Source of the DNA: a virus
DNA: 64,000 nt
Virus record (IMG/VR): IMGVR_UViG_3300045988_099276
Location: 32,001-96,000 of that record
Reading direction: 5' to 3' (one strand)
This document shows positions 1,874-42,730 of the stretch, one piece after another. Each line of letters starts with the position of its first letter. The first letter of the stretch is position 1. Position numbers and translations under genes: made by a program. Below the pieces are notes generated by a model. That model ran no database searches. It saw only the letters and a program-made list of their open reading frames with translations, and was not told the origin of the DNA.

Positions 1874-1950
1874 TGGTGGGCTATACAGAACTTGAATCTG
1901 TAACCTAAAGATTAGAAGTCTTTTGCTCTGTCCATTTGAGCTAATAGCCC
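1874..1950 (-). tRNA. tRNA-Arg (anticodon UCU), CCA encoded
   Basis: Minus strand reads GGGCTAT-TA-GCTC-AAATGGAC-AGAGC-A-AAAGA-CTTCTAA-TCTTT-AGGTT-ACAGA-TTCAAGT-TCTGT-ATAGCCC-A-CCA. This folds as a canonical cloverleaf with a 7-bp acceptor stem and a TTCAAGT T-loop. Confidence 0.9.
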
Positions 1951-2864: not shown

Positions 2865-3077
2865 TTATTTCACCAAAGTAAAATTAGGATGATAACCAAT
2901 CGACTTGCCGCATAGTGTAAGCAAGTTTACACAATTAGAGATAATACGCTCATACTCTTTAGTGCTCTTGGCATTCTCCAATAGAGAGATAGAAGCGGCC
3001 ATAGAAGTTTTTGCAAACTCTACAGGGCTTAACTCAATATAGATTTTTGCTTCTGGTGATAAATCATTCCAATTCAT
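2865..3077 (-). CDS. hypothetical protein
   Basis: 70-aa ORF with SD AAGAAAGGATG upstream. Confidence 0.5.
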   Translation of the reverse strand: MNWNDLSPEAKIYIELSPVEFAKTSMAASISLLENAKSTKEYERIISNCVNLLTLCGKSIGYHPNFTLVK

Positions 3078-12728: not shown

Positions 12729-14153
12729 ATGTCTAAGTTTAATGAAAAGGTTAAGCCCGAGCGTTCTATGTCCTATGAGGGTGGTAAGAATTACAAGAAG
12801 GATGTTCTTGAGGATTGGATGAACTTCCTATTCTCTAGCAAGATGGACGATGGTTTCTACGAGAATGCCGCAACGCAGCAAACTCGTTTCATCGAGCTTA
12901 CCAATCTTGTAATTGATAAGTATGGCGCTGAGTTTGCTGGTAAGTGTGCTATGTTCACGCGAAATGCTCTAGGGCAGCGTAGCACTGCTCAGCTTGTTGC
13001 GGCTATGCTGAATGGTCAGAGCTTTGAACGCAAGCGTGATTTCTACAAGGCTTTTTGTCATCGTCCTGATGATATGTCTGAGATTTTCGCTGCTGTTGAC
13101 ATGCTTGGTGGAAAGCGTTCTCATGCTATGATTCGTGGTTTTGCAGATTATATGTCTTGTCTTTCTGAGTACAATCTTATGAAGTATCAGATGAAGGGCA
13201 AGCGTTATAACATGTATGACCTTATCAATATCATTCACCCCAAGAGTGAGATTGTTGATGATTACATGAATGGTAAGCTAGAAGCTGCTGATACTTGGGA
13301 AGTCAATATCTCCACTGGCAAGGACAGTTGGAAGAATATGGTCGAAGGTAATCGTCTCGGTTATCTCGCTCTTATCCGCAATCTCAACAACATTCTCGCA
13401 GAGAATGTTGATGATGAATGGATTAAGCGTAATCTTGTAGACCAACTTATTAACGAGGTTTCTATCAAGAAGTCTCTTGTATTCCCTTATCAGATTTATA
13501 CCGCTTATCGCAATCTTAATGTTCAGAACTTTGCGGTCATCACAGCACTTGATACTGCTTTCCGTATTGCTTGCGGCAACATGCCCAAGCTGGAAGGTAA
13601 CTCCGTTATCATGCTTGATGTTTCCGGTTCGATGGAAGACCGCTATGGTAACAAGTCAAATCTTACCATCAAGGAAGTAGGAGCTTGCTACGCTGCGGCT
13701 CTTTACATTAACGGTAATTGCGACTTTGTAAAGTTCGGCAATCGTGCTAAATCTGCAACTTTCAAGAAGGCTTGCGGTCCGTTCCAAGTCATTCGTGAAA
13801 TGTGTGAGAATGATAATTGTGGTTATGGAACTGATATTGCTCCTGCTTTCGGTCTTATCAGTGACAAGAAGTACGACCGCATCTTCGTTGTCTCTGATAT
13901 GCAGGTTATGGAGCGTGTTTCATGGTGGGGAAGTGCTAACGATATGAGCAGCTATAATAGCTACTGTGCCAACAATGGCCGCACGATTCTTTATAGTTTT
14001 GACCTTGGAAACTATTCTAGCCAGATTGCCAATCCTAACAATCCTGATGTTCACTTCATGACAGCTCTGAACGATAACGTCTTCAAGATGCTTGAATACG
14101 TAGAGAATGGCGGCAAGTTATACGACTACATCAATGATAACTACCACTTCTAA
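12729..14153 (+). CDS. Ro60/Rsr-like TROVE-domain protein with vWA domain
   Basis: N-terminal SYEGGKNYKKD...W.NFLF is TROVE-like. C-terminal vWA domain with MIDAS motif VIMLDVSGSM. 474 aa. Confidence 0.8.
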   Translation: MSKFNEKVKPERSMSYEGGKNYKKDVLEDWMNFLFSSKMDDGFYENAATQQTRFIELTNLVIDKYGAEFAGKCAMFTRNALGQRSTAQLVAAMLNGQSFERKRDFYKAFCHRPDDMSEIFAAVDMLGGKRSHAMIRGFADYMSCLSEYNLMKYQMKGKRYNMYDLINIIHPKSEIVDDYMNGKLEAADTWEVNISTGKDSWKNMVEGNRLGYLALIRNLNNILAENVDDEWIKRNLVDQLINEVSIKKSLVFPYQIYTAYRNLNVQNFAVITALDTAFRIACGNMPKLEGNSVIMLDVSGSMEDRYGNKSNLTIKEVGACYAAALYINGNCDFVKFGNRAKSATFKKACGPFQVIREMCENDNCGYGTDIAPAFGLISDKKYDRIFVVSDMQVMERVSWWGSANDMSSYNSYCANNGRTILYSFDLGNYSSQIANPNNPDVHFMTALNDNVFKMLEYVENGGKLYDYINDNYHF

Positions 14154-21779: not shown

Positions 21780-22670
21780 ATGGTTCTAGAATTTATTATA
21801 GCAGTCGTCTGTGCAATTACATTTATCATATGCGGCTATAGTGTTGGTGTTATAGCTGGTAGAAAAGAAACATGTGATATAGTTAAAGAGAACAACAAAG
21901 AAGTTCTTATGGCGCGAGAGCATATTGAATATCAAATTCAAAATGAAAAAGCGCATTTAAAATCTCTCCAAGAGAATGTGGAACAGCAGAAGCAGAGCTT
22001 TGAAGATTTTAAAAAATCTGAAAAAGAGAATATTATGAATAATCTTCGTGATTTTCAAGCTCAAGTTGATAAAGATAAAGCTGAATATATTGAACAGATT
22101 CAGATTCTTCAAAGCTCGCTTGATAAGCTACAGCGCCAGAAGGCTGCGACAATTGAAGCGTTTCAGCGTGAACAGGCAGTTCAAGATTCTAAAGATGATT
22201 ATCGTATCATTATCGAAGATAGCGACAAAGCAGATATTGATATTCTTAATTCTTTTAAGAACCGCCTTTCCAATCCAGAGATTCTTTCAAAACTAATCTG
22301 GTCAACATATTTCCAAAAGAAAGCAAAGGCTTTATTTGTTAATATTGTTGGTACTGAAAAGGTATGCGGCATTTATAAGATTACAGATATAAATGATATG
22401 AAGTGTTATATAGGTCAGTCTGTAGATATTGCAAATCGCTTTACGCAACATTGTCGTTGCGGATGCGGCATAAAGACTCCTAAAGATAATAAGCTGTATG
22501 CGGCGATGCTTAAAGAAGGTTTAGACCAATTCACATTTGAGGTTGTAGAACTTTGTCCGCAAGAAGAATTAAATGAAAAAGAAAAATATTATATTGATGT
22601 ATATAATTCAGTTAATTATGGTTTCAATTCACAGGATGGTGTAAATGGGAAAAGTAACGATAATGCCTGA
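21780..22670 (+). CDS. membrane-anchored coiled-coil protein with a C-terminal GIY-YIG nuclease domain
   Basis: N-terminal TM helix FIIAVVCAITFIICGYSVGVIAG; about 130 aa of heptad-like Q/E/K-rich sequence; CGIYKITD...CYIGQS...RFTQH...KLY...E..YI..YN. Confidence 0.7.
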   Translation: MVLEFIIAVVCAITFIICGYSVGVIAGRKETCDIVKENNKEVLMAREHIEYQIQNEKAHLKSLQENVEQQKQSFEDFKKSEKENIMNNLRDFQAQVDKDKAEYIEQIQILQSSLDKLQRQKAATIEAFQREQAVQDSKDDYRIIIEDSDKADIDILNSFKNRLSNPEILSKLIWSTYFQKKAKALFVNIVGTEKVCGIYKITDINDMKCYIGQSVDIANRFTQHCRCGCGIKTPKDNKLYAAMLKEGLDQFTFEVVELCPQEELNEKEKYYIDVYNSVNYGFNSQDGVNGKSNDNA

Positions 22671-23319
22671 GACAATTAAGAATCCTTATACGTTCATTGG
22701 CGCATGTTCAGGTGTTGCTTATGATTCTGATGTGACAGATGATAAGAAGAATTATAGACGCGGTAAGCAATGTGTAGCAGACGGGCATGGACGTGTACTA
22801 GAATTTGTAGACGTATATATGGTTATTGAAGGATACTCGACCAGATGTATGCGTGAAATTATGCGTCACGTCGGAGACGGCTTAACAGTCGTGCAGAGGT
22901 CTACTAGGTATTGCAATGAAGATGGATTTGAATACTATACTCCACCTTCAATTGACAAAAACGAGACAGCTCTAAAGACTTATCAAGACGCTATGGCCGC
23001 AATTGAAAAGAGTTATAATGACCTTATTAGTGCTGGTATTCCTAAAGAAGATGCGGCAAACCTACTTCCTCTTGGAATTAACACGAAACTTTCGATGAAG
23101 AAGAATGCTCGTTGTCTCATGGATATGAGCCGCGTGCGCCTATGCAATCGTGCGCTTAAAGAAGCACGTGATTTTATGAATGACGTTGTAAATGCTCTAA
23201 AGGATTATTCACCAGAATGGAATGAGCTGGCTAACCAGATTTTTATGCCTAAGTGTGAAGCTCTTGGTTTTTGTAATGAAAAATTTAGTTGTGGAAAATA
23301 CCCTAAAAAAAGTTATTGA
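22645..23319 (+). CDS. thyX: flavin-dependent thymidylate synthase ThyX
   Basis: ThyX-like signature MRHVGDGLTVVQRSTRY (RHxxxx...QxSxRY); 224 aa. The start may be the ATG at 22660. Confidence 0.75.
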   Translation: MGKVTIMPETIKNPYTFIGACSGVAYDSDVTDDKKNYRRGKQCVADGHGRVLEFVDVYMVIEGYSTRCMREIMRHVGDGLTVVQRSTRYCNEDGFEYYTPPSIDKNETALKTYQDAMAAIEKSYNDLISAGIPKEDAANLLPLGINTKLSMKKNARCLMDMSRVRLCNRALKEARDFMNDVVNALKDYSPEWNELANQIFMPKCEALGFCNEKFSCGKYPKKSY

Positions 23320-23344: not shown

Positions 23345-23383
23345 ATATGATGTATATTGAAAGAAAAATTAGAAAGGATTTAC

Positions 23384-24343
23384 ATGTTTAAAACAAATAA
23401 TTCGTGCCACGTCGAGGGATATGTATTTTCAACTGACCGCCTTGCTCAGCGTGTTTCTAAAAAGACAGGAACTCCATTTATTAATGGAACAGTAAACATT
23501 GCAACTGATGACAAGGGTCTTAACGTTGTCCCTGTGTTTTTCCGTTATGTTACTGAGACTTTCAAGAGTGGTAAGCCTAATCCTACATGGGAAATTCTAA
23601 CTGCCCTTATTGACCATGATGGTTCAGATACTTTTGAAGCTTTTGGTACTTCTGCTCTTAAAGTTCGTATTGATGGTTCTGTCGGCACAAATGATTTTGT
23701 ATCTCGTGATGGTGAAGTTGTTTCTCCTAAGCGTGTCGAGGGTCAGTTTATGCACGTTATGACCAACGAGATTTCTGAGAATCCTGCGACATTCGATGTC
23801 GATATGCTGATTGCAAATGCGGCTGAGCAGGAAGTAGAAGATGGCGATGATTTCGTCAAGCTACGTGGTTATGTTTTTGATTATCGTGGAGACGCTCTTC
23901 CCGTTGATGTTAACGTTCGTTCCAAGGGCGGCATGGATTACTTCATTGACCAAGACATTTCCAATAAGAATCCTCTTCTAACTCATATTAAGGGTTCTAT
24001 TGTATCTCAGGCTATCACCACTGAGAAAACTGAGGAATCTGCATTTGGTGACCCTGTAGTTCATAAGGTTGTTCGTCATGTTCGCTCTTGGGATGTTACT
24101 TGGGCTGCTGTTGAACCTTATGAGTGGGATGATGAATCTACCATTACCAAGAAGGAATTCAAGCAGAAGCTAGACGAGCGTGAAGAGCGTATGGCAGAAC
24201 TTAAGCGTAATCATGACGAGTATCAGGCTAGTCGTAACGGTGGTCAGAATTTTGCGGCTGTTAAAGAATCTCCAAAGCCTGCGCCTAAGACCGAAGTACA
24301 GACAGATACAGACGAAGATGACGACGAGGATTGGCCTTTCTAG
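23384..24343 (+). CDS. single-stranded DNA-binding protein (phage SSB-like)
   Basis: AGAAAGGA SD then ATG. Acidic C-terminal tail ...DTDEDDDEDWPF resembles the SSB DDDIPF tip. OB-fold is inferred, not demonstrated. Confidence 0.55.
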   Translation: MFKTNNSCHVEGYVFSTDRLAQRVSKKTGTPFINGTVNIATDDKGLNVVPVFFRYVTETFKSGKPNPTWEILTALIDHDGSDTFEAFGTSALKVRIDGSVGTNDFVSRDGEVVSPKRVEGQFMHVMTNEISENPATFDVDMLIANAAEQEVEDGDDFVKLRGYVFDYRGDALPVDVNVRSKGGMDYFIDQDISNKNPLLTHIKGSIVSQAITTEKTEESAFGDPVVHKVVRHVRSWDVTWAAVEPYEWDDESTITKKEFKQKLDEREERMAELKRNHDEYQASRNGGQNFAAVKESPKPAPKTEVQTDTDEDDDEDWPF

Positions 24344-24416: not shown

Positions 24417-24671
24417 ATGGAATTTAACTTTACGACATGTGCGGCTCCTGCCGATAACACTTTCGGCAAGACTGTTTCAAAGTATGCTGAGCCAGTAAAG
24501 GCTTTCTATGAGTCTGGCGATGAACATCAGTGTATGACATGTGCTGATGCAGATGAAGCAAAGCGCATCTATAAGGGTCTTTATTCATATGTTCATGGAA
24601 ATAGCTGTGAGTATAAGGATAAAGTTAGTACTTGCCGCCGAGACAATGTTATTTATCTAAATCGTATTTAA
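24417..24671 (+). CDS. hypothetical protein
   Basis: 84-aa ORF with AAAGGA SD. Confidence 0.5.
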   Translation: MEFNFTTCAAPADNTFGKTVSKYAEPVKAFYESGDEHQCMTCADADEAKRIYKGLYSYVHGNSCEYKDKVSTCRRDNVIYLNRI

Positions 24672-24718: not shown

Positions 24719-24802
24719 ATGGCAATTGATATTTTTAATGTAGAACCTCACAAAGTCAGCCGTTCACTAGAGGGCTACACAGTCATGTTTTACGGTGAGC
24801 CT
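24719..24802 (+). CDS. Sak4-like (AAA_24) recombination ATPase, exon 1
   Basis: MAIDIFNVEPHKVSRSLEGYTVMFYGEP ends in the first half of a Walker A motif. An in-frame stop follows 18 nt later. Confidence 0.75.
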
Positions 24803-26116
24803 AAGTTTTGGGCATTTAACTAAAATAGTTATCTAAATTGTAGTAAAAAACTGGAAGCCTAAACCTTAAATATAAGGCATGGTAATCAGAGCGGAAGTCA
24901 TTGTTTAAAAGCATTGACACGCGCAACGCATAGGAATATTAAACATTTATTTAGAAAGGTTGTCTGGATGGAGAACCGCGAAAATCTAATTATTGAATTA
25001 TATCAAAGTGGATGCAGTCAAGCTGAATGTGCAAGAAAAGAGCATACAAATGTTAGAACCGTAAAGAAAGTTTTAAACAAAAATAATATTCATATTAGGA
25101 CTTCATCAGAAGCATCACGATTAGCTTATAGTTCTGGAAAGAAACAAAAAGGCCCAACTCCATATACTCAAGAGCAGGAGCAGATTGTTTTAGACTGCTA
25201 TGTAAATCAAAAACGTGGATTAAATTATTGTAAATCACAAGCAAAAGTTTCTCTTGCTACTTTAAATCAAATTTTAAAAGATAACGGTATTAAAAAACGA
25301 ACTTATGCAGAAGCAGCAGTTGAAAGTAATCAAAATAGAGCTTTGCATAAGAATAAAGAATATTTTAATATTCAGTCTAGTAACATGGCGTGGATTATTG
25401 GATTCTTAGCAGCAGATGGAAATGTGTCTAAAAGAGGAAACGAAATTAGTATTGGATTATCTTCTGTTGATAGAGAAATTCTAGAACGAATAAAAGCAGA
25501 AATTGAAATTGAAAATCCAATTCGTGATTTTACTTCTAGGGCAGGATTTGATTATTCAGAGTTAGTATGGACTTGTAAAGAGCATAGAGAAGAGTTAAAA
25601 AAATATTCTATTGTGCCGCAAAAGACTTTTATCTTAGAACCGCCAATTAATCTTGATAAAAAATATTGGCTTGATTACGTTCGTGGATATTTTGATGGAG
25701 ACGGTAGCGTTAATTTTATTGAAGTTAATGGAAAGAAACATTATACTGCATTAAGATGGCAAGTATGTTCTGCTACGCCATGTGTATTAGAGTTCATTCT
25801 AAATGTATTAGAATCATATGGTATTAAAAAGGTTAGTATTCAAAAGCAAAAGAGAGAAACAAGCGATTTATACTGTATTCAGTATAGCACAAATGCCACT
25901 AAAGAGATTTATAAAATTTTATATTCAACAGATAGCACGCTTTATTTAGCAAGAAAAAAGAAACACTTTGAAGAAATTATTCAAAAAATTGACAATAAAT
26001 AAATGAAATAGATTCCCACGAGACTACACTTGCCGAGAGCGGTGAGAAAAGATATGCTGAACTTATAGGAAACTATAAGAAGTAGAGGATAAAAAGCCTT
26101 TACGATAACACATTTG
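24803..26116 (+). mobile_element. group I intron carrying a LAGLIDADG homing endonuclease ORF
   Basis: Joining 24802 to 26117 restores GEPKTGKT. The 5' exon ends in U, which can form a G.U pair in a 4-bp P1 (GCCU 24799-24802 with GGGC 24810-24813). The intron ends in G (26116). The ORF is flanked by about 165 nt and about 114 nt of non-coding sequence. Confidence 0.75.
24968..26002 (+). CDS. LAGLIDADG homing endonuclease (double-motif) with N-terminal HTH repeats
   Basis: IIGFLAADGNV and YVRGYFDGDGSV motifs. Two HTH-like repeats (SQAECARKEHTNVRTVKKVL and SQAKVSLATLNQILKDNGI). Confidence 0.85.
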   Translation: MENRENLIIELYQSGCSQAECARKEHTNVRTVKKVLNKNNIHIRTSSEASRLAYSSGKKQKGPTPYTQEQEQIVLDCYVNQKRGLNYCKSQAKVSLATLNQILKDNGIKKRTYAEAAVESNQNRALHKNKEYFNIQSSNMAWIIGFLAADGNVSKRGNEISIGLSSVDREILERIKAEIEIENPIRDFTSRAGFDYSELVWTCKEHREELKKYSIVPQKTFILEPPINLDKKYWLDYVRGYFDGDGSVNFIEVNGKKHYTALRWQVCSATPCVLEFILNVLESYGIKKVSIQKQKRETSDLYCIQYSTNATKEIYKILYSTDSTLYLARKKKHFEEIIQKIDNK

Positions 26117-27049
26117 AAAACCGGAAAAACATCTACCGCCGCAAAATTTCCCAAGGCGCTTCTATTAGGCTTTGAAGTTGGTTATCTGACTATTGGCGGT
26201 ATTAAAGCTATTCCTATTAATAAGTGGTCTGAGTTTAAGCAGATTCTAAAGCAGCTTAAAGACCCCAAAGCCCATGAAATGTATAGTAACATCATTGTCG
26301 ATACTGCGGATATTGCTTACGACCTTTGTGAAAAGTATATCTGCAATCAAGCTGGAGTCTCGGCTGTAAACGAGCTACCTTATGGTCAGGGATGGTCTAA
26401 GACTAGTAAAGAGTTCGATGAATGTCTTCGTTCAATTCCTCAGATGGGCTATGGTCTAGTAATGATTTCACATAGTCAAGATAAGACTTTTACTGATGAA
26501 AATGGTAGTGAATATAACCAAATTGTTCCCACTCTTGGTAATCGTCCGCGTCTAATCGTTGACCGAATGAGTGACGTTATCGGTTACGCCCATCCAGTAG
26601 AAGAGGAAGATGGCCGCACTCATACTGTTCTGTATATGCGCGGAACCCCTCGATTCGTAGCTGGTTCTCGATTTAAGTATACTCCTGATTCTATTGACTT
26701 CACCTATGACAATCTTGTCAAGGCTATTGGTGATGCAATTGATAAGCAGGCAGAGGAAGATGCTGGAAAATTCGTGACTGATGCACGCACTACTGCTTAT
26801 GACATTAATGATGGACCTGACTTTGAAGCTATGAAGAATGAGTTCAAGGAACTAACTGTAAAGATTCAGCACAGCGTTTCTAAGGATGAATTCAAGAAGT
26901 CTTGGGCGCCTAAGATTATCGAAATTACAGATAAGTATCTTGGTGTCGGCAAGAAGGTTAATGACTGTACTGCCAAGCAAGCTGAACAGCTTTCACTTAT
27001 CCTCGATGACCTTAAAGACTTACTGTCTAATGGAATTGATGTAGCTTAA
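26117..27049 (+). CDS. Sak4-like (AAA_24) recombination ATPase, exon 2
   Basis: Begins KTGKTSTAAKFP (second half of Walker A). Walker B-like NIIVDTAD, then LVMISHSQ. Confidence 0.8.
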   Translation, partial: KTGKTSTAAKFPKALLLGFEVGYLTIGGIKAIPINKWSEFKQILKQLKDPKAHEMYSNIIVDTADIAYDLCEKYICNQAGVSAVNELPYGQGWSKTSKEFDECLRSIPQMGYGLVMISHSQDKTFTDENGSEYNQIVPTLGNRPRLIVDRMSDVIGYAHPVEEEDGRTHTVLYMRGTPRFVAGSRFKYTPDSIDFTYDNLVKAIGDAIDKQAEEDAGKFVTDARTTAYDINDGPDFEAMKNEFKELTVKIQHSVSKDEFKKSWAPKIIEITDKYLGVGKKVNDCTAKQAEQLSLILDDLKDLLSNGIDVA

Positions 27050-37988: not shown

Positions 37989-38441
37989 ATGATTTTTCAA
38001 GTACGGCAAGGAGTGTTTGAAACTAATTCAAGCTCAACACATACGCTAACTATCTGCTCAAAAGATGATTTTGACAAGTGGAAAAATGGCGAAGTATTTT
38101 GGCTTGACAATGATTGGCATAAATTAGATACAGATAAGAATTTTGTTACCCCAGAAGAGCTAAAAGAGCTTGCGGAAAAGTACAATGAAGAACAACAGAA
38201 GCGCATTGACGCAGGAGATAAGTACGCTAAACTGCTTGATATTGACAAAGTTCTCAATGAGCGTCCAGATTACGATAGTTGGGACGATAGCTATTGGGAC
38301 ACTGAGCGTAGTGCGCTGGAAGCATATACAACAGATGATTTTTATGTACGTAACGATGAACTTGAAACTTATAGTGAAACTTTTACTTCTCCTTCTGGTG
38401 ACGAAATGGTAGCGTTTGGAGCGTTTGGATATGATGACTAA
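37989..38441 (+). CDS. hypothetical acidic protein
   Basis: 150-aa ORF with AGAGGA SD. Confidence 0.5.
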   Translation: MIFQVRQGVFETNSSSTHTLTICSKDDFDKWKNGEVFWLDNDWHKLDTDKNFVTPEELKELAEKYNEEQQKRIDAGDKYAKLLDIDKVLNERPDYDSWDDSYWDTERSALEAYTTDDFYVRNDELETYSETFTSPSGDEMVAFGAFGYDD

Positions 38442-40557
38442 AGATTGGAATATGACAGCCAAAGGTTTTGACCCTCGCCCTTCCAATTGTGTTTCTTACA
38501 ATAACGGTAACTATACAGTTACGTTATCTCTTGCAGACGGGACTATGATTCGATACAGTAAAGACGACAAATTGGTCCCGTCTTTTCCTGACTCTATGGA
38601 TATTAAAATTACCAACTGCTGTTCGCTGAATTGCCGTTATTGTCACGAGAAATCGATAAAGGACGGACAGCATGGAGACATCTTATCAGACAGCTTTATT
38701 GACAAGCTACATCCTTACACTCAACTAGCTTGCTTAGCGGGAGATACAACCGTTCATACTGAATACGGTGCAAAAAATATTTCTGAGCTTAAAGTTGGTG
38801 ACAAGATTTACGATTCTGAATATAAATTACGAACTGTAATTTCTATTCAAACAAAACAAGACTCTTATCTAACAATTAAAGGTAATAGAGGTTTTAATGT
38901 TCAATGTTCAAAAGACCATCCATTCTATAGCAATAATGTTAAGACATTAGCTGAAAATATAAAAGCAAAAACTCAAATTGATGTTATTTCTTCTTTTGAA
39001 GATACAACTTTTACAAAAAATGAAAAGCCAATCATCTGTTATATGAACAAGTATATTCACCATTACACAAATCCAAGATATAAAAATACACATAGCGGCT
39101 ACATAACAGATGATAACAAAGTTGTTCTGTGTCCTAATACTCCAGCAATTCCTCAGCGCATCGTTCTTAATGAAGATTTAATGTGGTTATATGGATTATA
39201 TGTGGCCGAAGGGTCTTCAAAGAGTTTTGTTTTGCATGAAAAAGAAACTGACTTTGCAAATAGAATTAAACAAATATGGAAAGACAATTTTAAATTAGAT
39301 TGTGCTATTTACTATCATCCAGAAAGACACAGCCAAGCGATAGAGCCACAATCAAAATCTATTATGGATGCTTTCTTTGTAAAATATTTACAGGCAGGTC
39401 ATGGTGCTAGAAATAAAACTCTTAGCTTCTTATATAAAGTAAACAATAAAGAGTTTATTAGAAGTGCTTTGCGTGGGTTATATGATGGTGACGGTTGTAT
39501 TAGAACAAGAAAAAGAGGCGATTCTGTTTTCTATTCTTTAAGTTTAAAAACAACCAGTAAAACCTTAGCTTATGACGTAGCTTTTCTGATTGCAAAATGG
39601 TTTGGTATTTATGCTTCTGTTTTTCACGGCATCAGTCCAGAAAGAGAAATTGAGGGTAGAACTTTACAATCATCAGATTATTATATGGTTGATATTTATG
39701 GATTGGAATCTTGCAAGAAACTTTTTCCAGATTATATTGAATGGCAAGAACTAAAAGTAATACAACATCGTAGACAGCCTATTCTAAAAGCAAAAGAAAT
39801 CGTAGAAAGCTTAGACGAACAGACTCTTTATGATATTACGTTAGACGGCGGTACGCATATTTTTCCAATAAATGGATACGTATTAACACATAATTGCGGT
39901 GGGGGCAATGTTCTAGAGCATCCCGACCTTGTACCTTTTCTAAAGAAGTGTAAGGAACTAAAGTTAGTCCCATCTATAACAGTGAACCAGATTCATTTTA
40001 TGCAACAGCATAAGTTTCTCAAGCAGTTGACAGATGAAAAGCTAATCTATGGTCTTGGTATCTCTTTCCATCACCCTGATAAGAACTTCCTGCTTATGCT
40101 CCGCAGCTTTCCTAATGCGGTCATTCATACAATCGCAGGTATCACCAAGGAAAGAAATTATGAGTTCCTTGCCGACAACGGTTTAAAGATTCTTATTCTT
40201 GGATATAAGAAATTCGGTCGTGGAATTCAAGCCTACCAAGAGTCTCATCAGCATATTGATTACAGTATCATGAATCTCAAACACCTTTTGCCGTATATGG
40301 TCAAAGAAAAGTGGTTTGACAGCATTTCATTTGATAATCTTGCGCTAGAGCAGCTTGACGTAAAGAACCTTATGCCGCAAGATAAGTGGGATATGTTCTA
40401 TATGGGCGATGAAGGTAGTTCCACGATGTATGTTGATATGGTCAATCGAGAGTTTGCGGCGAATTCTACGTCTGAAACTCGTTATCCTCTTTTGGACAAT
40501 GTAGAAGATATGTTGAATGTAATTCACCAAGAGAAGAAGGGAAAAGATATTGACTAA
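38431..40557 (+). CDS. radical SAM protein interrupted by an intein
   Basis: Cluster motif CSLNCRYC (CxxxCxxC) in the N-extein; CGGGNVLEHPD (GGE-like SAM motif) at the start of the C-extein. The ATG at 38431 overlaps the upstream stop. Confidence 0.8.
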   Translation: MMTKDWNMTAKGFDPRPSNCVSYNNGNYTVTLSLADGTMIRYSKDDKLVPSFPDSMDIKITNCCSLNCRYCHEKSIKDGQHGDILSDSFIDKLHPYTQLACLAGDTTVHTEYGAKNISELKVGDKIYDSEYKLRTVISIQTKQDSYLTIKGNRGFNVQCSKDHPFYSNNVKTLAENIKAKTQIDVISSFEDTTFTKNEKPIICYMNKYIHHYTNPRYKNTHSGYITDDNKVVLCPNTPAIPQRIVLNEDLMWLYGLYVAEGSSKSFVLHEKETDFANRIKQIWKDNFKLDCAIYYHPERHSQAIEPQSKSIMDAFFVKYLQAGHGARNKTLSFLYKVNNKEFIRSALRGLYDGDGCIRTRKRGDSVFYSLSLKTTSKTLAYDVAFLIAKWFGIYASVFHGISPEREIEGRTLQSSDYYMVDIYGLESCKKLFPDYIEWQELKVIQHRRQPILKAKEIVESLDEQTLYDITLDGGTHIFPINGYVLTHNCGGGNVLEHPDLVPFLKKCKELKLVPSITVNQIHFMQQHKFLKQLTDEKLIYGLGISFHHPDKNFLLMLRSFPNAVIHTIAGITKERNYEFLADNGLKILILGYKKFGRGIQAYQESHQHIDYSIMNLKHLLPYMVKEKWFDSISFDNLALEQLDVKNLMPQDKWDMFYMGDEGSSTMYVDMVNREFAANSTSETRYPLLDNVEDMLNVIHQEKKGKDID
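38731..39894 (+). mobile_element. intein (388 aa) with LAGLIDADG homing endonuclease domain
   Basis: Block A CLAGDTTVHT; block B SKDHPF; LAGLIDADG motifs LYGLYVAEGS and LRGLYDGDGCI; terminal block INGYVLTHN followed by the +1 Cys (TGC at 39895). Confidence 0.9.
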
Positions 40558-42730
40558 ATATATTACAAAACGAAATGGAAATAAAGTAGAATTCGATATT
40601 TCTAAGATTGAAAATGCGGTATTTCGTGCGGCATGTGATGTTTCTGGTACTCTTGGATGGACACTGACGTTTTGCCATGAGGTTGCGAAAGATATTGCAC
40701 ATGACTTTGAAAAAGCTGAATATTATCATGACGGCATGACAGTCGAAGAAATTCAGGACGCTGTTGAAGAACTGCTCATGGGCGATTTTCCGCATGTTGC
40801 AAAATCATATATGATTTATCGTTATGAACATCAGATTGCACGTCAAGAAAATTTTGAAGACGAATTACAGAAAATTGTAAATAATGATACTTCGAGTGCA
40901 TATGCTTACGAAAATAGCAATAAAGATTTTACATCTGTGGCTATTCAGAGAGATTATATCGCTGGTATGATGTCAACAAAACTAGCTTTGAAATACGTTT
41001 TTCCAGATGACGTTGTGCAAGCTCATAAAGAGGGCTATTTATATATTCATGATTTAGATTATTCATTCCAGCACACTTTAAATAATTGCGGATTATTAAA
41101 TCTTGAAGATATGCTAAACAATGGTACTGTAATTAGTGGAGTTAAAATTGAAAAACCACACTCTCTTTTAACTGCTACCACTATTGCAACTCAAATTATG
41201 ATGCAAGTAGCAAATTTTCAGTTTGGCGGCCAAACAATTAATTTGGGTCATTTAGCTCCATTTGTAAGAGTCTCTTATGAAAAGTATTTAAAGAAATACA
41301 AAGATTATGGTTTAGATGAAAATCAAGCAAAATCTTTTGCAGAAAAGGATACCAAGAAAGAGATTAAAGATAGTATCCAATGTCTTAATTATCAACTAAG
41401 TACATTGTTCAGCGCTGGGTCAGGTCAAACTCCATTCGCCTCCGTGTTCATTTACCTGAACGATAATCCTGAATATACAAAAGAGCTTATTGCACTAACA
41501 GAAGAGTTACTTGAACAGAGACTTCTTGGTATGCCTAATGAAGATGGTGTGCGCATAACTCAGGCATTCCCCAAGATTCTGTATTGTTTAGATGAAGATA
41601 ATTATAAGCCTGGTACAAAATATTGGTGGCTTACAGCAAAAGCAGCCAACTGTTCTATTCATCGCCTTGTCCCAGATTTTATTTCAGTAAAAAAGAGCAA
41701 GGAGCTAAAAGAAGGCTATGTTGTACCTAATATGGGTTGTCGTTCATTCCTCGCTCCTTGGTACGATGAAAACGGTAAAGCAAAATTCTGGGGACGTTGG
41801 AATCTTGGCGTTTGTTCACTAAACCCACTTCTAATGGCTTACGATAGTAACAAGGACGAAGATAAGTTTTTTGAGATTTTAAGGGATAAAGCAGAATTAG
41901 CGAAGAAAAGTCTTGAAGTACGAGCAAAACGTCTAGCCAATACAAAATCAGATGTAGCTCCTATCCTTTGGCAACATGGAGTCTATGCGCGTTTAAAGCC
42001 AGGCGAGACATTAAAAGAAATGGTTTACAATGGTTATTGCTCTGCTTCTTTAGGCTTTATCGGCTTAGCAGAGGTAACACAATATATGAAAGGCGTTAGT
42101 ATTGCAACGCCAGAAGGCGAAGCATTTGCAACAAAAATTATGAGTTTCTTGAGTGATTTATGCGCCAAATGGAAAGAAGAAACCGGCATCGGATTTTCAC
42201 TTTACTCAACTCCCTCAGAAAATTACTGTGGTAAGGCTTGTCATGCTGTAAAGGCCAAATATGCAGAACAATTTAAATCTGATTTTGGGGAAACAAAAGA
42301 TTATTTAGAGAACTCTTATCATATTCCTTCGTGTGAAGAAATTGACCCGTTCTCAAAAATTACCATTGAAGGAAGGCTACAGGCACATAGTCTAGGCGGT
42401 TGCCTAAGCTATATTAACTGCGCAGATATTACAGCAAATCCATCTGCTATTTATAAGGTGCTTGAATGTATCTATAATAATTGTCTATATTGTGAAATCA
42501 ATGTTATTACTTCCTATTGCCATACGTGCGGACAAAAACAAACAATTCATGTCCATGAGAACGAAGATGGCAGCACTTGGTGGGAATGCGATAACTGTGG
42601 CGAAACAGACCAAAATAAAATGGATGTTGCAGCGCGTACGTGCGGTTATATCGGAACTAATTGGTGGAACAGCTCTAAGACTCAAGAAATTGCTAGAAGG
42701 TATTACAATTTAGATAATCATAAAATATAA
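40550..42730 (+). CDS. nrdD: anaerobic ribonucleoside-triphosphate reductase (class III)
   Basis: N-terminal ATP-cone (ITKRNGNKVEFDISKIENAV); C-terminal CHTCG...CDNCG zinc site; glycyl-radical motif RTCGYIG. Confidence 0.92.
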   Translation: MTKYITKRNGNKVEFDISKIENAVFRAACDVSGTLGWTLTFCHEVAKDIAHDFEKAEYYHDGMTVEEIQDAVEELLMGDFPHVAKSYMIYRYEHQIARQENFEDELQKIVNNDTSSAYAYENSNKDFTSVAIQRDYIAGMMSTKLALKYVFPDDVVQAHKEGYLYIHDLDYSFQHTLNNCGLLNLEDMLNNGTVISGVKIEKPHSLLTATTIATQIMMQVANFQFGGQTINLGHLAPFVRVSYEKYLKKYKDYGLDENQAKSFAEKDTKKEIKDSIQCLNYQLSTLFSAGSGQTPFASVFIYLNDNPEYTKELIALTEELLEQRLLGMPNEDGVRITQAFPKILYCLDEDNYKPGTKYWWLTAKAANCSIHRLVPDFISVKKSKELKEGYVVPNMGCRSFLAPWYDENGKAKFWGRWNLGVCSLNPLLMAYDSNKDEDKFFEILRDKAELAKKSLEVRAKRLANTKSDVAPILWQHGVYARLKPGETLKEMVYNGYCSASLGFIGLAEVTQYMKGVSIATPEGEAFATKIMSFLSDLCAKWKEETGIGFSLYSTPSENYCGKACHAVKAKYAEQFKSDFGETKDYLENSYHIPSCEEIDPFSKITIEGRLQAHSLGGCLSYINCADITANPSAIYKVLECIYNNCLYCEINVITSYCHTCGQKQTIHVHENEDGSTWWECDNCGETDQNKMDVAARTCGYIGTNWWNSSKTQEIARRYYNLDNHKI

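What the first reader, a model, noticed from the sequence alone, without database searches (positions are those of the whole stretch)
24719..27049. Group I intron with a LAGLIDADG ORF splitting the Walker A motif of a Sak4-like ATPase
Exon 1 ends ..VMFYGEP, and the frame hits TAA after 6 more codons. About 1.3 kb downstream, an ORF with no proper start begins KTGKTSTAAKFP. Joining 24802 to 26117 restores a perfect P-loop, GEPKTGKT, in frame. That junction obeys group I rules. The last exon nucleotide is U and can wobble-pair with G in a P1 helix (GCCU/GGGC). The last intron nucleotide is G. A double-motif LAGLIDADG endonuclease occupies the middle. Insertion at the most conserved catalytic motif is typical of homing introns.
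Basis: partly seen in the sequence, partly recalled or inferred. Interest (0 to 1): 0.7.

Follow-up and report, generated by a model that had tools for sequence, protein, structure and literature searches.

The report
Homing group I intron in phage Sak4
A 1.3 kb self-splicing-type (group I) intron that carries its own homing endonuclease gene interrupts the ATP-binding motif of a phage recombination gene; it is a real but fairly ordinary example of a well-known kind of selfish genetic element.

Summary
Window 24803-26116 is a 1314-nt group I intron. It splits a Sak4-like (Pfam AAA_24, PHROG 124) ATPase gene between codons P and K of the Walker A motif GEP|KTGKT. Intron-less homologues up to 96% identical read straight through the junction. 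A sister phage (L052) carries a 258-nt ORF-less intron at the same site. A third relative (L177) carries the intron with an orthologous endonuclease. The three introns differ by 11-21 compensatory double changes spread over P2-P9.1. The guide sequence 5'-GUUUUGGGC matches the ligated exons GCCU|AAAAC, with the U·G wobble at the 5' splice site and a terminal G at 26116. The P3/P7 pseudoknot, P7.1, P8 and P9 covary across a family whose 32-nt 3' element is exact in at least 120 viral contigs and 42 bacterial species genomes. Rfam's RF00028 model misses the whole family. A family-specific covariance model hits the ORF-less orthologue at E=4e-23. The double-motif LAGLIDADG endonuclease lies in the P7.1 loop. 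Its closest named relative is I-MsaII, from an annotated intron that also splits the Walker A of the RecA-like rec gene in Staphylococcus phages. Verdict: a new member of a known kind, of modest interest. Splicing itself was not tested.

The parts
24719..24802 (+). Exon 1 of the Sak4-like (AAA_24) ATPase gene: 28 codons ending ..VMFYGEP. The last base is U.
24803..26116 (+). The group I intron (1314 nt), subgroup IA-like, with the endonuclease ORF in the P7.1 loop.
24799..24813 (+). P1 and the internal guide sequence. Exon GCCU (24799-24802) pairs with GGGC (24810-24813), with a U24802·G24810 wobble. GUUUU (24805-24809) is the P10 half of the guide.
   Evidence: Sequence. An own-versus-foreign exon test over 11 homing sites gave 0 of 5000 permutations reaching the observed score.
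24817..24831 (+). P2 hairpin UAACUA-AAA-UAGUUA.
   Evidence: Compensatory change in L052 (UAAUUA/UAAUUA).
24839..24844 (+). P3 5' strand UGUAGU, which pairs with 26023-26028.
   Evidence: Across the family, 6 of 6 pairs show double changes and 95% of cells are paired. L052 has CGCGGA/UCCGCG and L177 has GACAGU/ACUGUC.
24851..24924 (+). P4-P6 domain. P4 is CUGG 24851-54 / UCAG 24886-89. P5 is 24857-59 / 24881-83, with P5a 24864-77. P6 is GCG 24891-93 / CGC 24920-22. P6a is the hairpin 24897-24918 with loop UUUAAAAG.
   Evidence: P6 and P6a covary among the window, L052, L083, L041 and L177. P4 does not vary among these relatives, so it has no covariation support.
24928..24932 (+). P7 5' strand GCAUA, which pairs with UAUGC 26053-26057. 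Together with P3 it forms the pseudoknot.
   Evidence: 100% paired. The middle pair covaries A-U / G-C / U-A across the family.
24933..24937 (+). P7.1 5' strand GGAAU, which pairs with AUUCC 26012-26016 and closes the loop that holds the endonuclease ORF.
   Evidence: 100% paired, and 4 of 5 pairs covary.
24968..26002 (+). Homing endonuclease ORF (344 aa from the ATG, preceded by GAAAGG). It has two N-terminal helix-turn-helix-like repeats followed by a double LAGLIDADG core.
   Evidence: Pfam PF14528 E=8.5e-12 in two stretches. PHROG 4645 E=2.7e-41, covering profile positions 2-307 of 308. 63% identical to the orthologue in L177 and 28% to I-MsaII.
26012..26028 (+). P7.1 3' strand (26012-16), the conserved joiner CACGAG (26017-22) and the P3 3' strand ACUACA (26023-28).
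26029..26046 (+). P8 hairpin CUUGCCG-AGAG-CGGUGAG.
   Evidence: Sequence. The hairpin is present with different sequences throughout the family. Column-wise counting was spoiled by register shifts in the alignment.
26047..26061 (+). J8/7 (AAAAGA), the P7 3' strand UAUGC (26053-57) and UGAA. The stretch resembles the Rfam group I consensus AAGAUAUAGUC.
   Evidence: (consensus line).
26062..26079 (+). P9 hairpin CUUAUAG-GAAA-CUAUAAG.
   Evidence: 99% paired, and 6 of 7 pairs covary.
26079..26116 (+). The 32-nt element GAAGUAGAGGAUAAAAAGCCUUUACGAUAACA, which is the most conserved part of the family. It contains the P9.1 hairpin (26082-26103). After it comes the tail CAUUUG, ending in the terminal G at 26116.
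   Evidence: Exact in at least 120 IMG/VR contigs and 42 species genomes. P9.1 shows compensatory changes in L177 (GUAAGAG/CUCUUAC).
26117..27049 (+). Exon 2 of the Sak4-like ATPase gene (KTGKTSTAAKFP... to the stop). The first 5 nt, AAAAC, pair with the guide sequence (P10).

Best explanation
Window 24803-26116 is a mobile group I intron of IA-like architecture, with an extra P7.1 stem between P7 and P3'. It sits in the gene for a Sak4-like RecA-fold ssDNA-annealing ATPase of an SPbeta-like phage. The phage is known only from metagenomes.

**Inferred splicing mechanism.** The pre-mRNA folds so that the guide sequence 5'-GUUUUGGGC-3' holds the end of exon 1 (GCCU, with the U·G wobble) in P1 and the start of exon 2 (AAAAC) in P10. 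A free guanosine bound in P7 attacks after U24802. The terminal G26116 then occupies the G-site, and the exons are ligated to read GAGCCU|AAAACC. This restores the Walker A motif GEPKTGKT and a 338-aa protein.

**Inferred mobility.** The LAGLIDADG endonuclease is translated from the P7.1 loop. It cuts intron-less alleles near the P-loop codons, and repair copies the intron together with the flanking exon sequence.

**What is shown and what is inferred.** Shown here: the gene is collinear with intron-less homologues. All three allele states occur in relatives (no intron, intron without ORF, intron with ORF). The guide sequence is complementary to both exons. The core helices covary, and the endonuclease ORF is intact. 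Inferred: catalysis (self-splicing or protein-assisted), the endonuclease's activity and its target.
For: 1. **Collinearity.** The spliced protein matches AAA_24 and Sak4-like profiles without a gap across the junction. Intron-less homologues of 338 aa, up to 96% identical, read FYGEPKTGKT. Their DNA reads GGTGAGCCTAAGACTGGAAAAACA.
2. **Three allele states at the same site.** L131/L132 have no intron. L052 has a 258-nt intron without an ORF. The window and L177/L178 have the intron with an orthologous LAGLIDADG ORF in the same loop.
3. **Compensatory evolution among the orthologous introns.** The window differs from L177 by 21 double changes over 69 helix positions, and from L052 by 11 over 58. 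Pairing is kept in P2, P3, P5, P6, P6a, P7.1, P8, P9 and P9.1.
4. **Family-wide covariation** (14 sequences). Paired cells: P3 95%, P7 100%, P7.1 100%, P9 99%. 19 pairs show double changes. 0 of 500 shuffles reach the observed values on four of the five measures, and 2 of 500 on the fifth (further pair types). Structures slid by 1-3 columns pair at only 29-48%.
5. **Splice-site rules.** Exon 1 ends in U opposite G, and the intron ends in G. At 11 different homing sites the intron's guide sequence matches its own exons (mean 10 bp) but not foreign exons (2.2 bp); 0 of 5000 permutations reach the observed score.
6. **Family covariance model.** A model built without the window, L052 or the 32-mer hits L052 over its full length (121.7 bits, E=4e-23). 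It also hits both halves of the window intron (28.2 and 21.2 bits).
7. **Thermodynamic fold.** Folding the ORF-less orthologue recovers P2, P3, P5, P6, P6a, P7.1, P8, P9 and P9.1.
8. **A tract that fits co-conversion.** The 210 nt just 3' of the insertion site is only 74-81% identical to the intron-less allele, against about 90-100% over most of the rest of the gene. In the same tract the window is 86-98% identical to the intron-bearing L052.
9. **Other phages.** The same ribozyme family interrupts DNA polymerase, terminase and tape-measure genes, with HNH or other endonuclease ORFs in different loops.
Against: - Rfam RF00028 gives no hit in the window, or in any family member, even at E<=10.
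- P1 has only 4 bp on the exon side.
- P4 is invariant among the few relatives that share the window's type of P4-P6 domain, so it has no covariation support.
- The MFE z-score of the ORF-less orthologue is modest (-1.56).
- The 5' strands of P3 and P7.1 used to assemble the family set were found by searching for complementarity. Those counts are therefore partly circular. P7, P9 and the slide controls are not.
- There is no RNA or biochemical evidence of splicing. Dependence on a maturase or a host factor cannot be excluded.
Confidence: 0.9

Rival explanations
1. A genes-in-pieces arrangement. A free-standing LAGLIDADG homing endonuclease gene has inserted into the ATPase gene, and the two fragments are translated separately. 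They would either reassemble, or only exon 2 would function.
For: - Gene callers list 307-311-aa proteins that start MKTGKT, from a TTG at 26114.
- Split phage genes caused by endonuclease insertion are known (PMC3045599, listed).
Against: - Exon 1 would be a 34-aa peptide that carries half a P-loop.
- No Shine-Dalgarno sequence precedes the TTG at 26114.
- L052 has the same interruption with no ORF at all, only 258 nt of conserved, covarying RNA.
- The flanks obey the guide-sequence rules.
Confidence: 0.04
2. A decayed, splicing-dead intron that makes the Sak4-like gene a pseudogene in this phage.
For: - No experimental splicing data exist.
- Rfam's model does not recognise the RNA.
- The 1 kb ORF lies inside the core, between P7 and P3'.
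Against: - Every core helix is intact, and the helices have been kept by compensatory changes across three diverged orthologues.
- The exons remain under protein-level constraint: 96% amino-acid identity against 90% nucleotide identity with the intron-less allele.
- The endonuclease ORF is intact and 63% identical to its orthologue.
- At least one exon-2 protein traced to its contigs (P0025, carried by 9 contigs) lies downstream of this intron at the same site. Dozens more exon-2-length (304-312 aa) homologues suggest the intron is common there.
Confidence: 0.04
3. Another kind of intervening element: an intein, a group II intron or a translational bypass.
For: - Exon 1, the endonuclease ORF and exon 2 all lie in the same reading frame, and the insert is a multiple of 3 (1314 nt).
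- P-loops are classic intein sites.
- An intein with a LAGLIDADG domain does exist elsewhere in this window.
Against: - Six in-frame stop codons lie between the exons.
- There are no intein splice residues at the junctions.
- There is no reverse-transcriptase ORF, no 5' GUGYG and no domain V, and Rfam reports no group II hit.
- 1314 nt is far beyond any known translational bypass.
Confidence: 0.01

Closest known systems
The intron (predicted group I) with the endonuclease I-MsaII in the RecA-like rec gene of Staphylococcus Kayvirus/Silviavirus phages (MSA6, fRuSau02, Romulus, Remus; PMC5618024)
   Same: - The host gene is a RecA-fold phage recombinase.
- That intron also splits the Walker A motif (..EVYGLTGSG|KSTFAVHLS), with U at -1, a P1 of GUGGU/GCCAC and a terminal G.
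- Its endonuclease is the closest named relative of the window's ORF. It is 28% identical over the full length and has the same layout: two N-terminal HTH-like repeats followed by a double LAGLIDADG core.
   Different: - The insertion point is 3 codons further into the P-loop (GSG|KS, against GEP|KTGKT).
- The ribozyme is a different sequence family, with the classical GUUCAACGACUA element and without the 32-nt 3' element.
- The host protein is a RecA/UvsX-type protein, not Sak4/AAA_24.
IA1/IA2 group I introns in tape-measure, terminase and tail-tube genes of Bacillus cereus-group prophages (Tourasse and Kolsto 2008, PMC2504315)
   Same: - Same kind of element and the same host range (phages of Bacillota).
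- The window's ribozyme family is found in tape-measure, terminase and DNA polymerase genes of Staphylococcus, Clostridioides, Alicyclobacillus and Arcanobacterium phages and in many Bacillaceae genomes, including Bacillus albus.
- Retargeting happens through changes in P1/P10 while the core is kept, as that paper describes.
   Different: I could not check sequence identity with those published introns, because their figures and sequences are not held. That paper reports no LAGLIDADG ORFs (0 occurrences) and no intron in a Sak4 gene.
Phage T4 td/nrdB/sunY introns and the Twort/SPO1 introns (classical IA2 phage introns; Rfam RF00028)
   Same: - The P1-P10 organisation, the U·G at the 5' splice site and the terminal G.
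- A J8/7-P7 sequence similar to the Rfam consensus AAGAUAUAGUC (against window 26048-26058).
- An endonuclease ORF looped out of a peripheral stem.
- From general knowledge: extra stems between P7 and P3' are a subgroup IA trait.
   Different: - RF00028 does not score this family at all.
- The endonuclease is LAGLIDADG, not GIY-YIG or HNH.
- The ORF sits in P7.1.
- The 3' P9.1-plus-tail domain is unusually invariant.

Membership tests
Group I intron | The last exon-1 nucleotide is U and forms a U·G wobble with the internal guide sequence in P1. | tested here: met
   U24802·G24810, flanked by GCC/GGC. The same rule holds at 11 homing sites of the family.
Group I intron | The last intron nucleotide is G (omega-G), and P10 pairs the guide sequence with the 3' exon. 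| tested here: met
   G26116, with GUUUU 24805-09 pairing AAAAC 26117-21. Across the family the 3' end reads GAUAACA-N(2-6)-G followed by the exon. P10 averages 6 bp with the intron's own exon and 1.6 bp with a foreign exon.
Group I intron | A conserved core in the order P3-P4-P5-P6-P7-P3'-P8-P7'-P9, with a P3/P7 pseudoknot supported by covariation. | tested here: met
   P3, P7, P7.1 and P9 are 95-100% paired with many double changes, and the slide and shuffle controls fall far below. P4 is invariant and so uninformative. P8 is supported by inspection only.
Group I intron | A match to the curated covariance model (Rfam RF00028). | tested here: not met
   No hit in the window or in ORF-less family members at E<=10, although the model found classical introns in L001. 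This is a limit of the model's sensitivity, not a defining property of the class. The family-specific model R1 hits the orthologue L052 at E=4e-23.
Group I intron | Guanosine-dependent two-step transesterification (self-splicing). | not testable with these tools
   This needs in vitro transcription with GTP, or RT-PCR from infected cells.
Group I intron, subgroup IA | Extra stem(s) P7.1/P7.1a or P7.1/P7.2 between the P7 5' strand and the P3 3' strand (criterion recalled from Michel and Westhof 1990). | tested here: met
   The P7.1 stem follows P7 directly and precedes CACGAG-P3'. It is 100% paired and 4 of 5 pairs covary.
LAGLIDADG homing endonuclease (single-chain, double-motif) | Two LAGLIDADG motifs, each ending in an acidic catalytic residue, within one polypeptide. 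| tested here: met
   Pfam PF14528 E=8.5e-12 in two stretches. The motifs are IIGFLAADG and YVRGYFDGDG. Full-length match to PHROG 4645. Only a weak sequence match to the solved structure I-MsoI (E=0.26).
LAGLIDADG homing endonuclease (single-chain, double-motif) | Site-specific cleavage of the intron-less allele. | not testable with these tools
   The candidate target is the L131 sequence around GGTGAGCCTAAGACTGGAAAAACATC. The divergent exon tract fits past homing but is not proof.
Sak4-like / AAA_24 RecA-fold ATPase (host gene) | A profile match above the curated cut-off, with an intact Walker A after the exons are joined. | tested here: met
   PF13479 scores 143.9 bits against a cut-off of 27. 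PHROG 124 E=1e-52. The GEPKTGKT motif is identical in intron-less homologues.
Intein | An in-frame insertion with no stop codons, an N-terminal Cys/Ser and a C-terminal His-Asn followed by Cys/Ser/Thr. | tested here: not met
   Six in-frame stops lie between the exons, and the junction residues are absent.
Group II intron | A 5' GUGYG, domain V, and usually a reverse-transcriptase ORF. | tested here: not met
   The sequence shows none of these. Rfam gives no hit, and the ORF is LAGLIDADG only.

The most novel reading that the evidence does not exclude
Two related possibilities remain open.

1. The I-MsaII-like endonuclease lineage (tandem N-terminal HTH repeats plus a double LAGLIDADG core) may specialise in the Walker-A-coding DNA of RecA-fold phage recombinases. 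It would then have moved between two unrelated ribozyme scaffolds: the Kayvirus rec intron and this family.
2. The ribozyme family here may be a widespread group I lineage that has not been curated. Rfam does not detect it. Its near-invariant 32-nt P9.1-plus-tail module is combined with interchangeable P4-P6 domains and guide sequences, and it occurs in at least 120 viral contigs and 42 bacterial species.
Probability: 0.25. Interest if true: 0.5.

Novelty: new member of a known kind. Interest (0 to 1): 0.3.

Why it matters
**Annotation.** This phage's Sak4-like recombinase is intact, not truncated. Gene callers split it into a 34-aa stub and an 'MKTGKT...' ORF of about 310 aa. Dozens of database homologues have that exon-2 length (304-312 aa), which suggests the same mis-annotation is frequent.

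**Detection methods.** Rfam RF00028 gives no hit for any member tested of an abundant family of phage group I introns. Intron surveys that rely on it will therefore undercount. The family alignment made here could seed a better model.

**Biology.** Intron-less, ORF-less and ORF-bearing alleles coexist at one site in related phages. This is a clean natural snapshot of the homing cycle. It is also a second case of an intron with a related LAGLIDADG enzyme in the P-loop of a RecA-fold recombinase gene.

None of this changes the current understanding of group I introns.

Tried and rejected
- **Rfam cmscan.** I ran it on the region at E<=1, on the whole window at gathering thresholds, on three phage loci, on five loci with compact family members at E<=10 and on the MSA6 rec intron. 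The family never matched Intron_gpI. The only hits were two unrelated classical introns in L001.
- **Similarity search for the 5' half.** blastn and nhmmer of the intron's 5' half against the first ten loci gave almost nothing. The 5' domain was identified by structure instead.
- **Automatic 5' splice-site search.** Scanning 2.5 kb upstream by P1/P10 complementarity gave many false positives. With random exon-2 controls the scores were not discriminating on their own. I replaced this with a cross-site permutation test on curated sites.
- **Alternative 5' splice site.** The complementarity scan preferred a site 12 nt upstream (..AUGUUU|). I rejected it because it would delete YGEP from the Walker A that is present in all intron-less homologues.
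- **P8 pair counting.** Column-wise counting on the MAFFT alignment failed (37% paired) because of register shifts. P8 rests on inspection of individual hairpins.
- **Full-length family covariance model.** A shorter model without the 32-mer was used.
- **Four-sequence MAFFT alignment of the orthologues.** It misaligned P3 by one column, so I tabulated the helices explicitly.
- **PDB sequence search with the endonuclease.** It gave only a marginal I-MsoI match.
- **Literature search.** A search for 'Sak4' together with 'intron' found no report of an intron in a Sak4 gene.
Full report
**1. The observation**

- An ORF starts at ATG 24719 and reads MAIDIFNVEPHKVSRSLEGYTVMFYGEP up to base 24802. 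It then runs six more codons (KFWAFN) into TAA.
- A 344-aa ORF (ATG 24968 to TAA 26002) follows. The mechanical ORF list extends it upstream to TTG 24914.
- A further ORF, entered at 26114/26117, reads KTGKTSTAAKFP... to 27049.
- Joining 24802 to 26117 gives GEPKTGKT. The joined 338-aa protein matches Pfam AAA_24 without a break (residues 19-214 against profile positions 2-195, E=7e-42). It also matches PHROG 124, 'Sak4-like ssDNA annealing protein' (E=1e-52).
- The middle ORF is a double-motif LAGLIDADG protein (PF14528, two stretches, E=8.5e-12; PHROG 4645 'endonuclease', full length, E=2.7e-41).
- All three ORFs happen to share one reading frame, but six in-frame stops separate the exons. 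An intein is therefore excluded.

**2. Is the gene really one gene?**

A search of the protein collection found 4246 homologues.
- The best are full-length proteins of about 338 aa. P0001 (96% identical), P0002, P0003 and P0004 all read ..VMFYGEPKTGKTSTAAKFPK.. without a break.
- The DNA of the intron-less allele (L131/L132) reads GGTGAGCCTAAGACTGGAAAAACA at the site.
- Many other homologues are 307-311 aa and start MKTGKT. These are exon-2-only gene calls. For P0025, the contigs L177-L180 show exon 1 and/or the same intron immediately upstream.
- The nearest cultured relatives are the uninterrupted Sak4-like genes of 134-142 kb Enterococcus phages, at 55% identity.
- The neighbouring genes are a YorF-like gene, a YorH-like gene, a DnaB-like helicase, a primase, a RecJ-like gene and Pol III alpha. 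This places the window in an SPbeta-like replication module.

**3. Related introns**

Megablast of the region against phage genomes matched only about 70 nt (window 26046-26121). That stretch was 87-95% identical in 14 unrelated phages of Staphylococcus, Mammaliicoccus, Clostridioides, Alicyclobacillus and Arcanobacterium. Where annotation or ORFs could be read, the segment lies inside or next to split genes:
- DNA polymerase, with an 'endonuclease' ORF (L002);
- terminase (L003);
- the tape-measure gene (L005, L006, L010).

In L006 the tape-measure gene reads ..GSTIVNLG | NNMAAQESEI.. across an insert that contains an HNH ORF.

It is also exact in 42 species-representative genomes, mostly Bacillota. 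It occurs once in the window.

One of the viral contigs is decisive. L052 is a 134.7 kb contig from a sister phage. Its exons are 93% identical to the window's, and it has an intron at exactly the same site. That intron is only 258 nt long and has no ORF. L177/L178 come from a more distant relative (Sak4 78% identical). They carry the intron with an orthologous LAGLIDADG ORF (63% amino-acid identity) in the same position.

**4. Structure**

From these comparisons the window intron folds as a group I intron.

| Element | Window coordinates and sequence |
|---|---|
| P1 | GCCU 24799-802 / GGGC 24810-13, with U24802·G24810 |
| P10 | GUUUU 24805-09 / AAAAC 26117-21 |
| P2 | 24817-31 |
| P3 | UGUAGU 24839-44 / ACUACA 26023-28 |
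| P4 | 24851-54 / 24886-89 |
| P5 and P5a | 24857-83 |
| P6 | 24891-93 / 24920-22 |
| P6a | 24897-918 |
| P7 | GCAUA 24928-32 / UAUGC 26053-57 |
| P7.1 | GGAAU 24933-37 / AUUCC 26012-16 (the endonuclease ORF lies in its loop) |
| Joiner | CACGAG 26017-22 |
| P8 | 26029-46 |
| J8/7 | AAAAGA 26047-52 |
| P9 | 26062-79 |
| P9.1 | 26082-103 |
| Tail | GAUAACACAUUUG, ending in G26116 |

The guide sequence 5'-GUUUUGGGC-3' is the reverse complement of the ligated exons GCCU|AAAAC, apart from the single G opposite U that makes the wobble.

**5. Tests of that structure**

(a) *Orthologues.* Against L177, 21 of 69 helix positions differ on both strands and still pair. Against L052, 11 of 58 do. The changes fall in P2, P3, P5, P6, P6a, P7.1, P8, P9 and P9.1.

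(b) *Family.* On a MAFFT alignment of 14 members, the named structure pairs 91.6% of cells, against 75.6% in shuffles and 29-48% when slid by 1-3 columns. 19 pairs show double changes. None of 500 shuffles reaches the observed value on four of the five measures, and 2 of 500 do on the fifth.
- P3 has 6 of 6 covarying pairs.
- P7 covaries at its centre: GCAUA/UAUGC, GCGUA/UACGC and GCUUA/UAAGC.
- P7.1 has 4 of 5 covarying pairs, and P9 has 6 of 7.

Two caveats apply. The 5' strands of P3 and P7.1 were located by complementarity when the set was assembled. P8 could not be counted column-wise.

(c) *Guide sequences.* At 11 different homing sites, each intron's guide sequence matches its own exons (mean 10 bp of P1 plus P10) and not the exons of other sites (2.2 bp). 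0 of 5000 permutations reach the observed total.

(d) *Covariance models.* Rfam RF00028 finds nothing in the window or in ORF-less family members at E<=10. It did detect two classical introns in L001. I built a model from 11 family members, excluding the window, L052 and the invariant 32-mer. It hits L052 end to end (121.7 bits, E=4e-23). It hits the window in two pieces, 25936-26079 (28.2 bits) and 24837-25046 (21.2 bits). That is expected, because a 1 kb ORF interrupts P7.1.

(e) *Thermodynamic fold.* RNAfold of the L052 intron recovers the non-pseudoknotted helices. The z-score is only -1.56, as may be expected for an AU-rich RNA.

**6. Mobility**

- The endonuclease ORF is intact, and each LAGLIDADG motif keeps its acidic residue.
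- In other members of the ribozyme family the ORFs differ. Some are HNH (in L006), and they sit in other loops, such as P8 or P9, or upstream of P6a.
- Among 73 unique 3' domains, only the window has an ORF-sized (about 1 kb) insert in P7.1. The orthologue L177 does as well.
- The 210 nt of exon 2 next to the insertion site are 74-81% identical to the intron-less allele, against roughly 90-100% over most of the rest of the gene. The same tract is 86-98% identical to the intron-bearing L052. This is the pattern expected from co-conversion during homing, but it is not proof.

**7. Comparison with what is known**

Group I introns of subgroups IA1 and IA2 in tape-measure, terminase and tail genes of Bacillota prophages are well described, including retargeting through P1/P10 (PMC2504315). 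Phage introns that encode LAGLIDADG enzymes are known but uncommon (PMC11878797).

The closest named relative of the window's endonuclease is I-MsaII, at 28% identity over the full length and with the same domain layout. It is encoded in the intron of the RecA-like rec gene of Staphylococcus Kayvirus and Silviavirus phages (PMC5618024). Reading that locus shows that its intron also splits the Walker A motif..EVYGLTGSG | KSTFAVHLS, with P1 GUGGU/GCCAC and a terminal G. The insertion point is three codons further along than in the window, and the ribozyme is a different sequence family.

I found no paper that reports an intron in a Sak4-type gene.

**8. Verdict**

It is a new member, at a new host-gene site, of a known kind of element.
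- Confidence that it is a group I intron carrying a homing endonuclease: about 0.9.
- Not shown: actual splicing, whether self-catalysed or assisted, and endonuclease activity.
- Interest is modest (0.3). The useful by-products are the annotation fix for split Sak4 genes, the demonstration that Rfam misses an abundant phage intron family, and the parallel with the I-MsaII/rec intron.

Noticed in passing
window 38416-40557 (+): This 713-aa ORF has a radical-SAM start and lies just upstream of the anaerobic ribonucleotide reductase NrdD (40550-42730). It contains an apparent intein..LHPYTQLA|CLAGDTTVH...GYVLTHN|CGGGNV.., with a LAGLIDADG_3 domain (LYGLYVAEGS / LRGLYDGDGC). It is a second LAGLIDADG-bearing selfish element in the same window.
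   Followed up: partly
window 21780-22670 (+): A GIY-YIG endonuclease ORF (296 aa) whose 3' end overlaps the start of the ThyX gene (22645-23319). It looks like a free-standing homing endonuclease. The same arrangement occurs in the relative L131. The family covariance model R1 gave a weak hit, probably by chance, inside it at 22309-22393 (21.7 bits, E about 0.009).
   Followed up: no
window 26015-26022 and 26053-26057; family loci: The conserved joiner CCA[C/A]GAG, between P7.1 and P3', tends to vary together with the middle pair of P7. CACGAG mostly goes with GCAUA/UAUGC, and CAAGAG mostly with GCGUA/UACGC, with exceptions in L067 and L119. This could be a base triple onto P7 or just shared ancestry.
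   Followed up: no
L135, L138, L139, L144, L166, L168 (genome-contig hits): The exact 32-nt 3' element of the family also occurs in metagenome-assembled genomes labelled Dolichospermum, 'uncultured archaeon', Heimdallarchaeota, Gammaproteobacteria, Omnitrophota and Bacteroidota. Either phage contigs were mis-binned or the family's range extends well beyond Bacillota.
   Followed up: no
L001 (Staphylococcus phage PT1-1) 4178-4403 and 4453-4787: Two tandem classical group I introns (Rfam RF00028, 41.5 and 51.4 bits) lie about 1.1 kb downstream of the family-type intron (3' end near 3077), all close to the start of the tape-measure gene. That would make three introns of two ribozyme families within about 2 kb. 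None of them is annotated in the record.
   Followed up: no
window 23357-24343 (+): The YorF-like protein directly upstream of the Sak4-like gene ends in an acidic tail..TDEDDDEDWPF. This resembles the C-terminal tip of bacterial SSB proteins. From general knowledge, Sak4 of phage HK620 is stimulated by its cognate SSB, so this may be the partner single-strand-binding protein.
   Followed up: no
L177 216-1103: The relative L177 has an additional 295-aa ORF with a faint LAGLIDADG_3 match between the YorF-like gene and exon 1 of the Sak4 gene. The window has only a short 84-aa ORF (24417-24671) at that place.
   Followed up: no
window 12729-14153 (+) and 1877-1950 (-): The phage encodes a protein with a TROVE (Ro60-like) domain (E=1e-13) and one tRNA gene (Rfam, 69.6 bits). 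I did not look for a Y-RNA-like partner.
   Followed up: no
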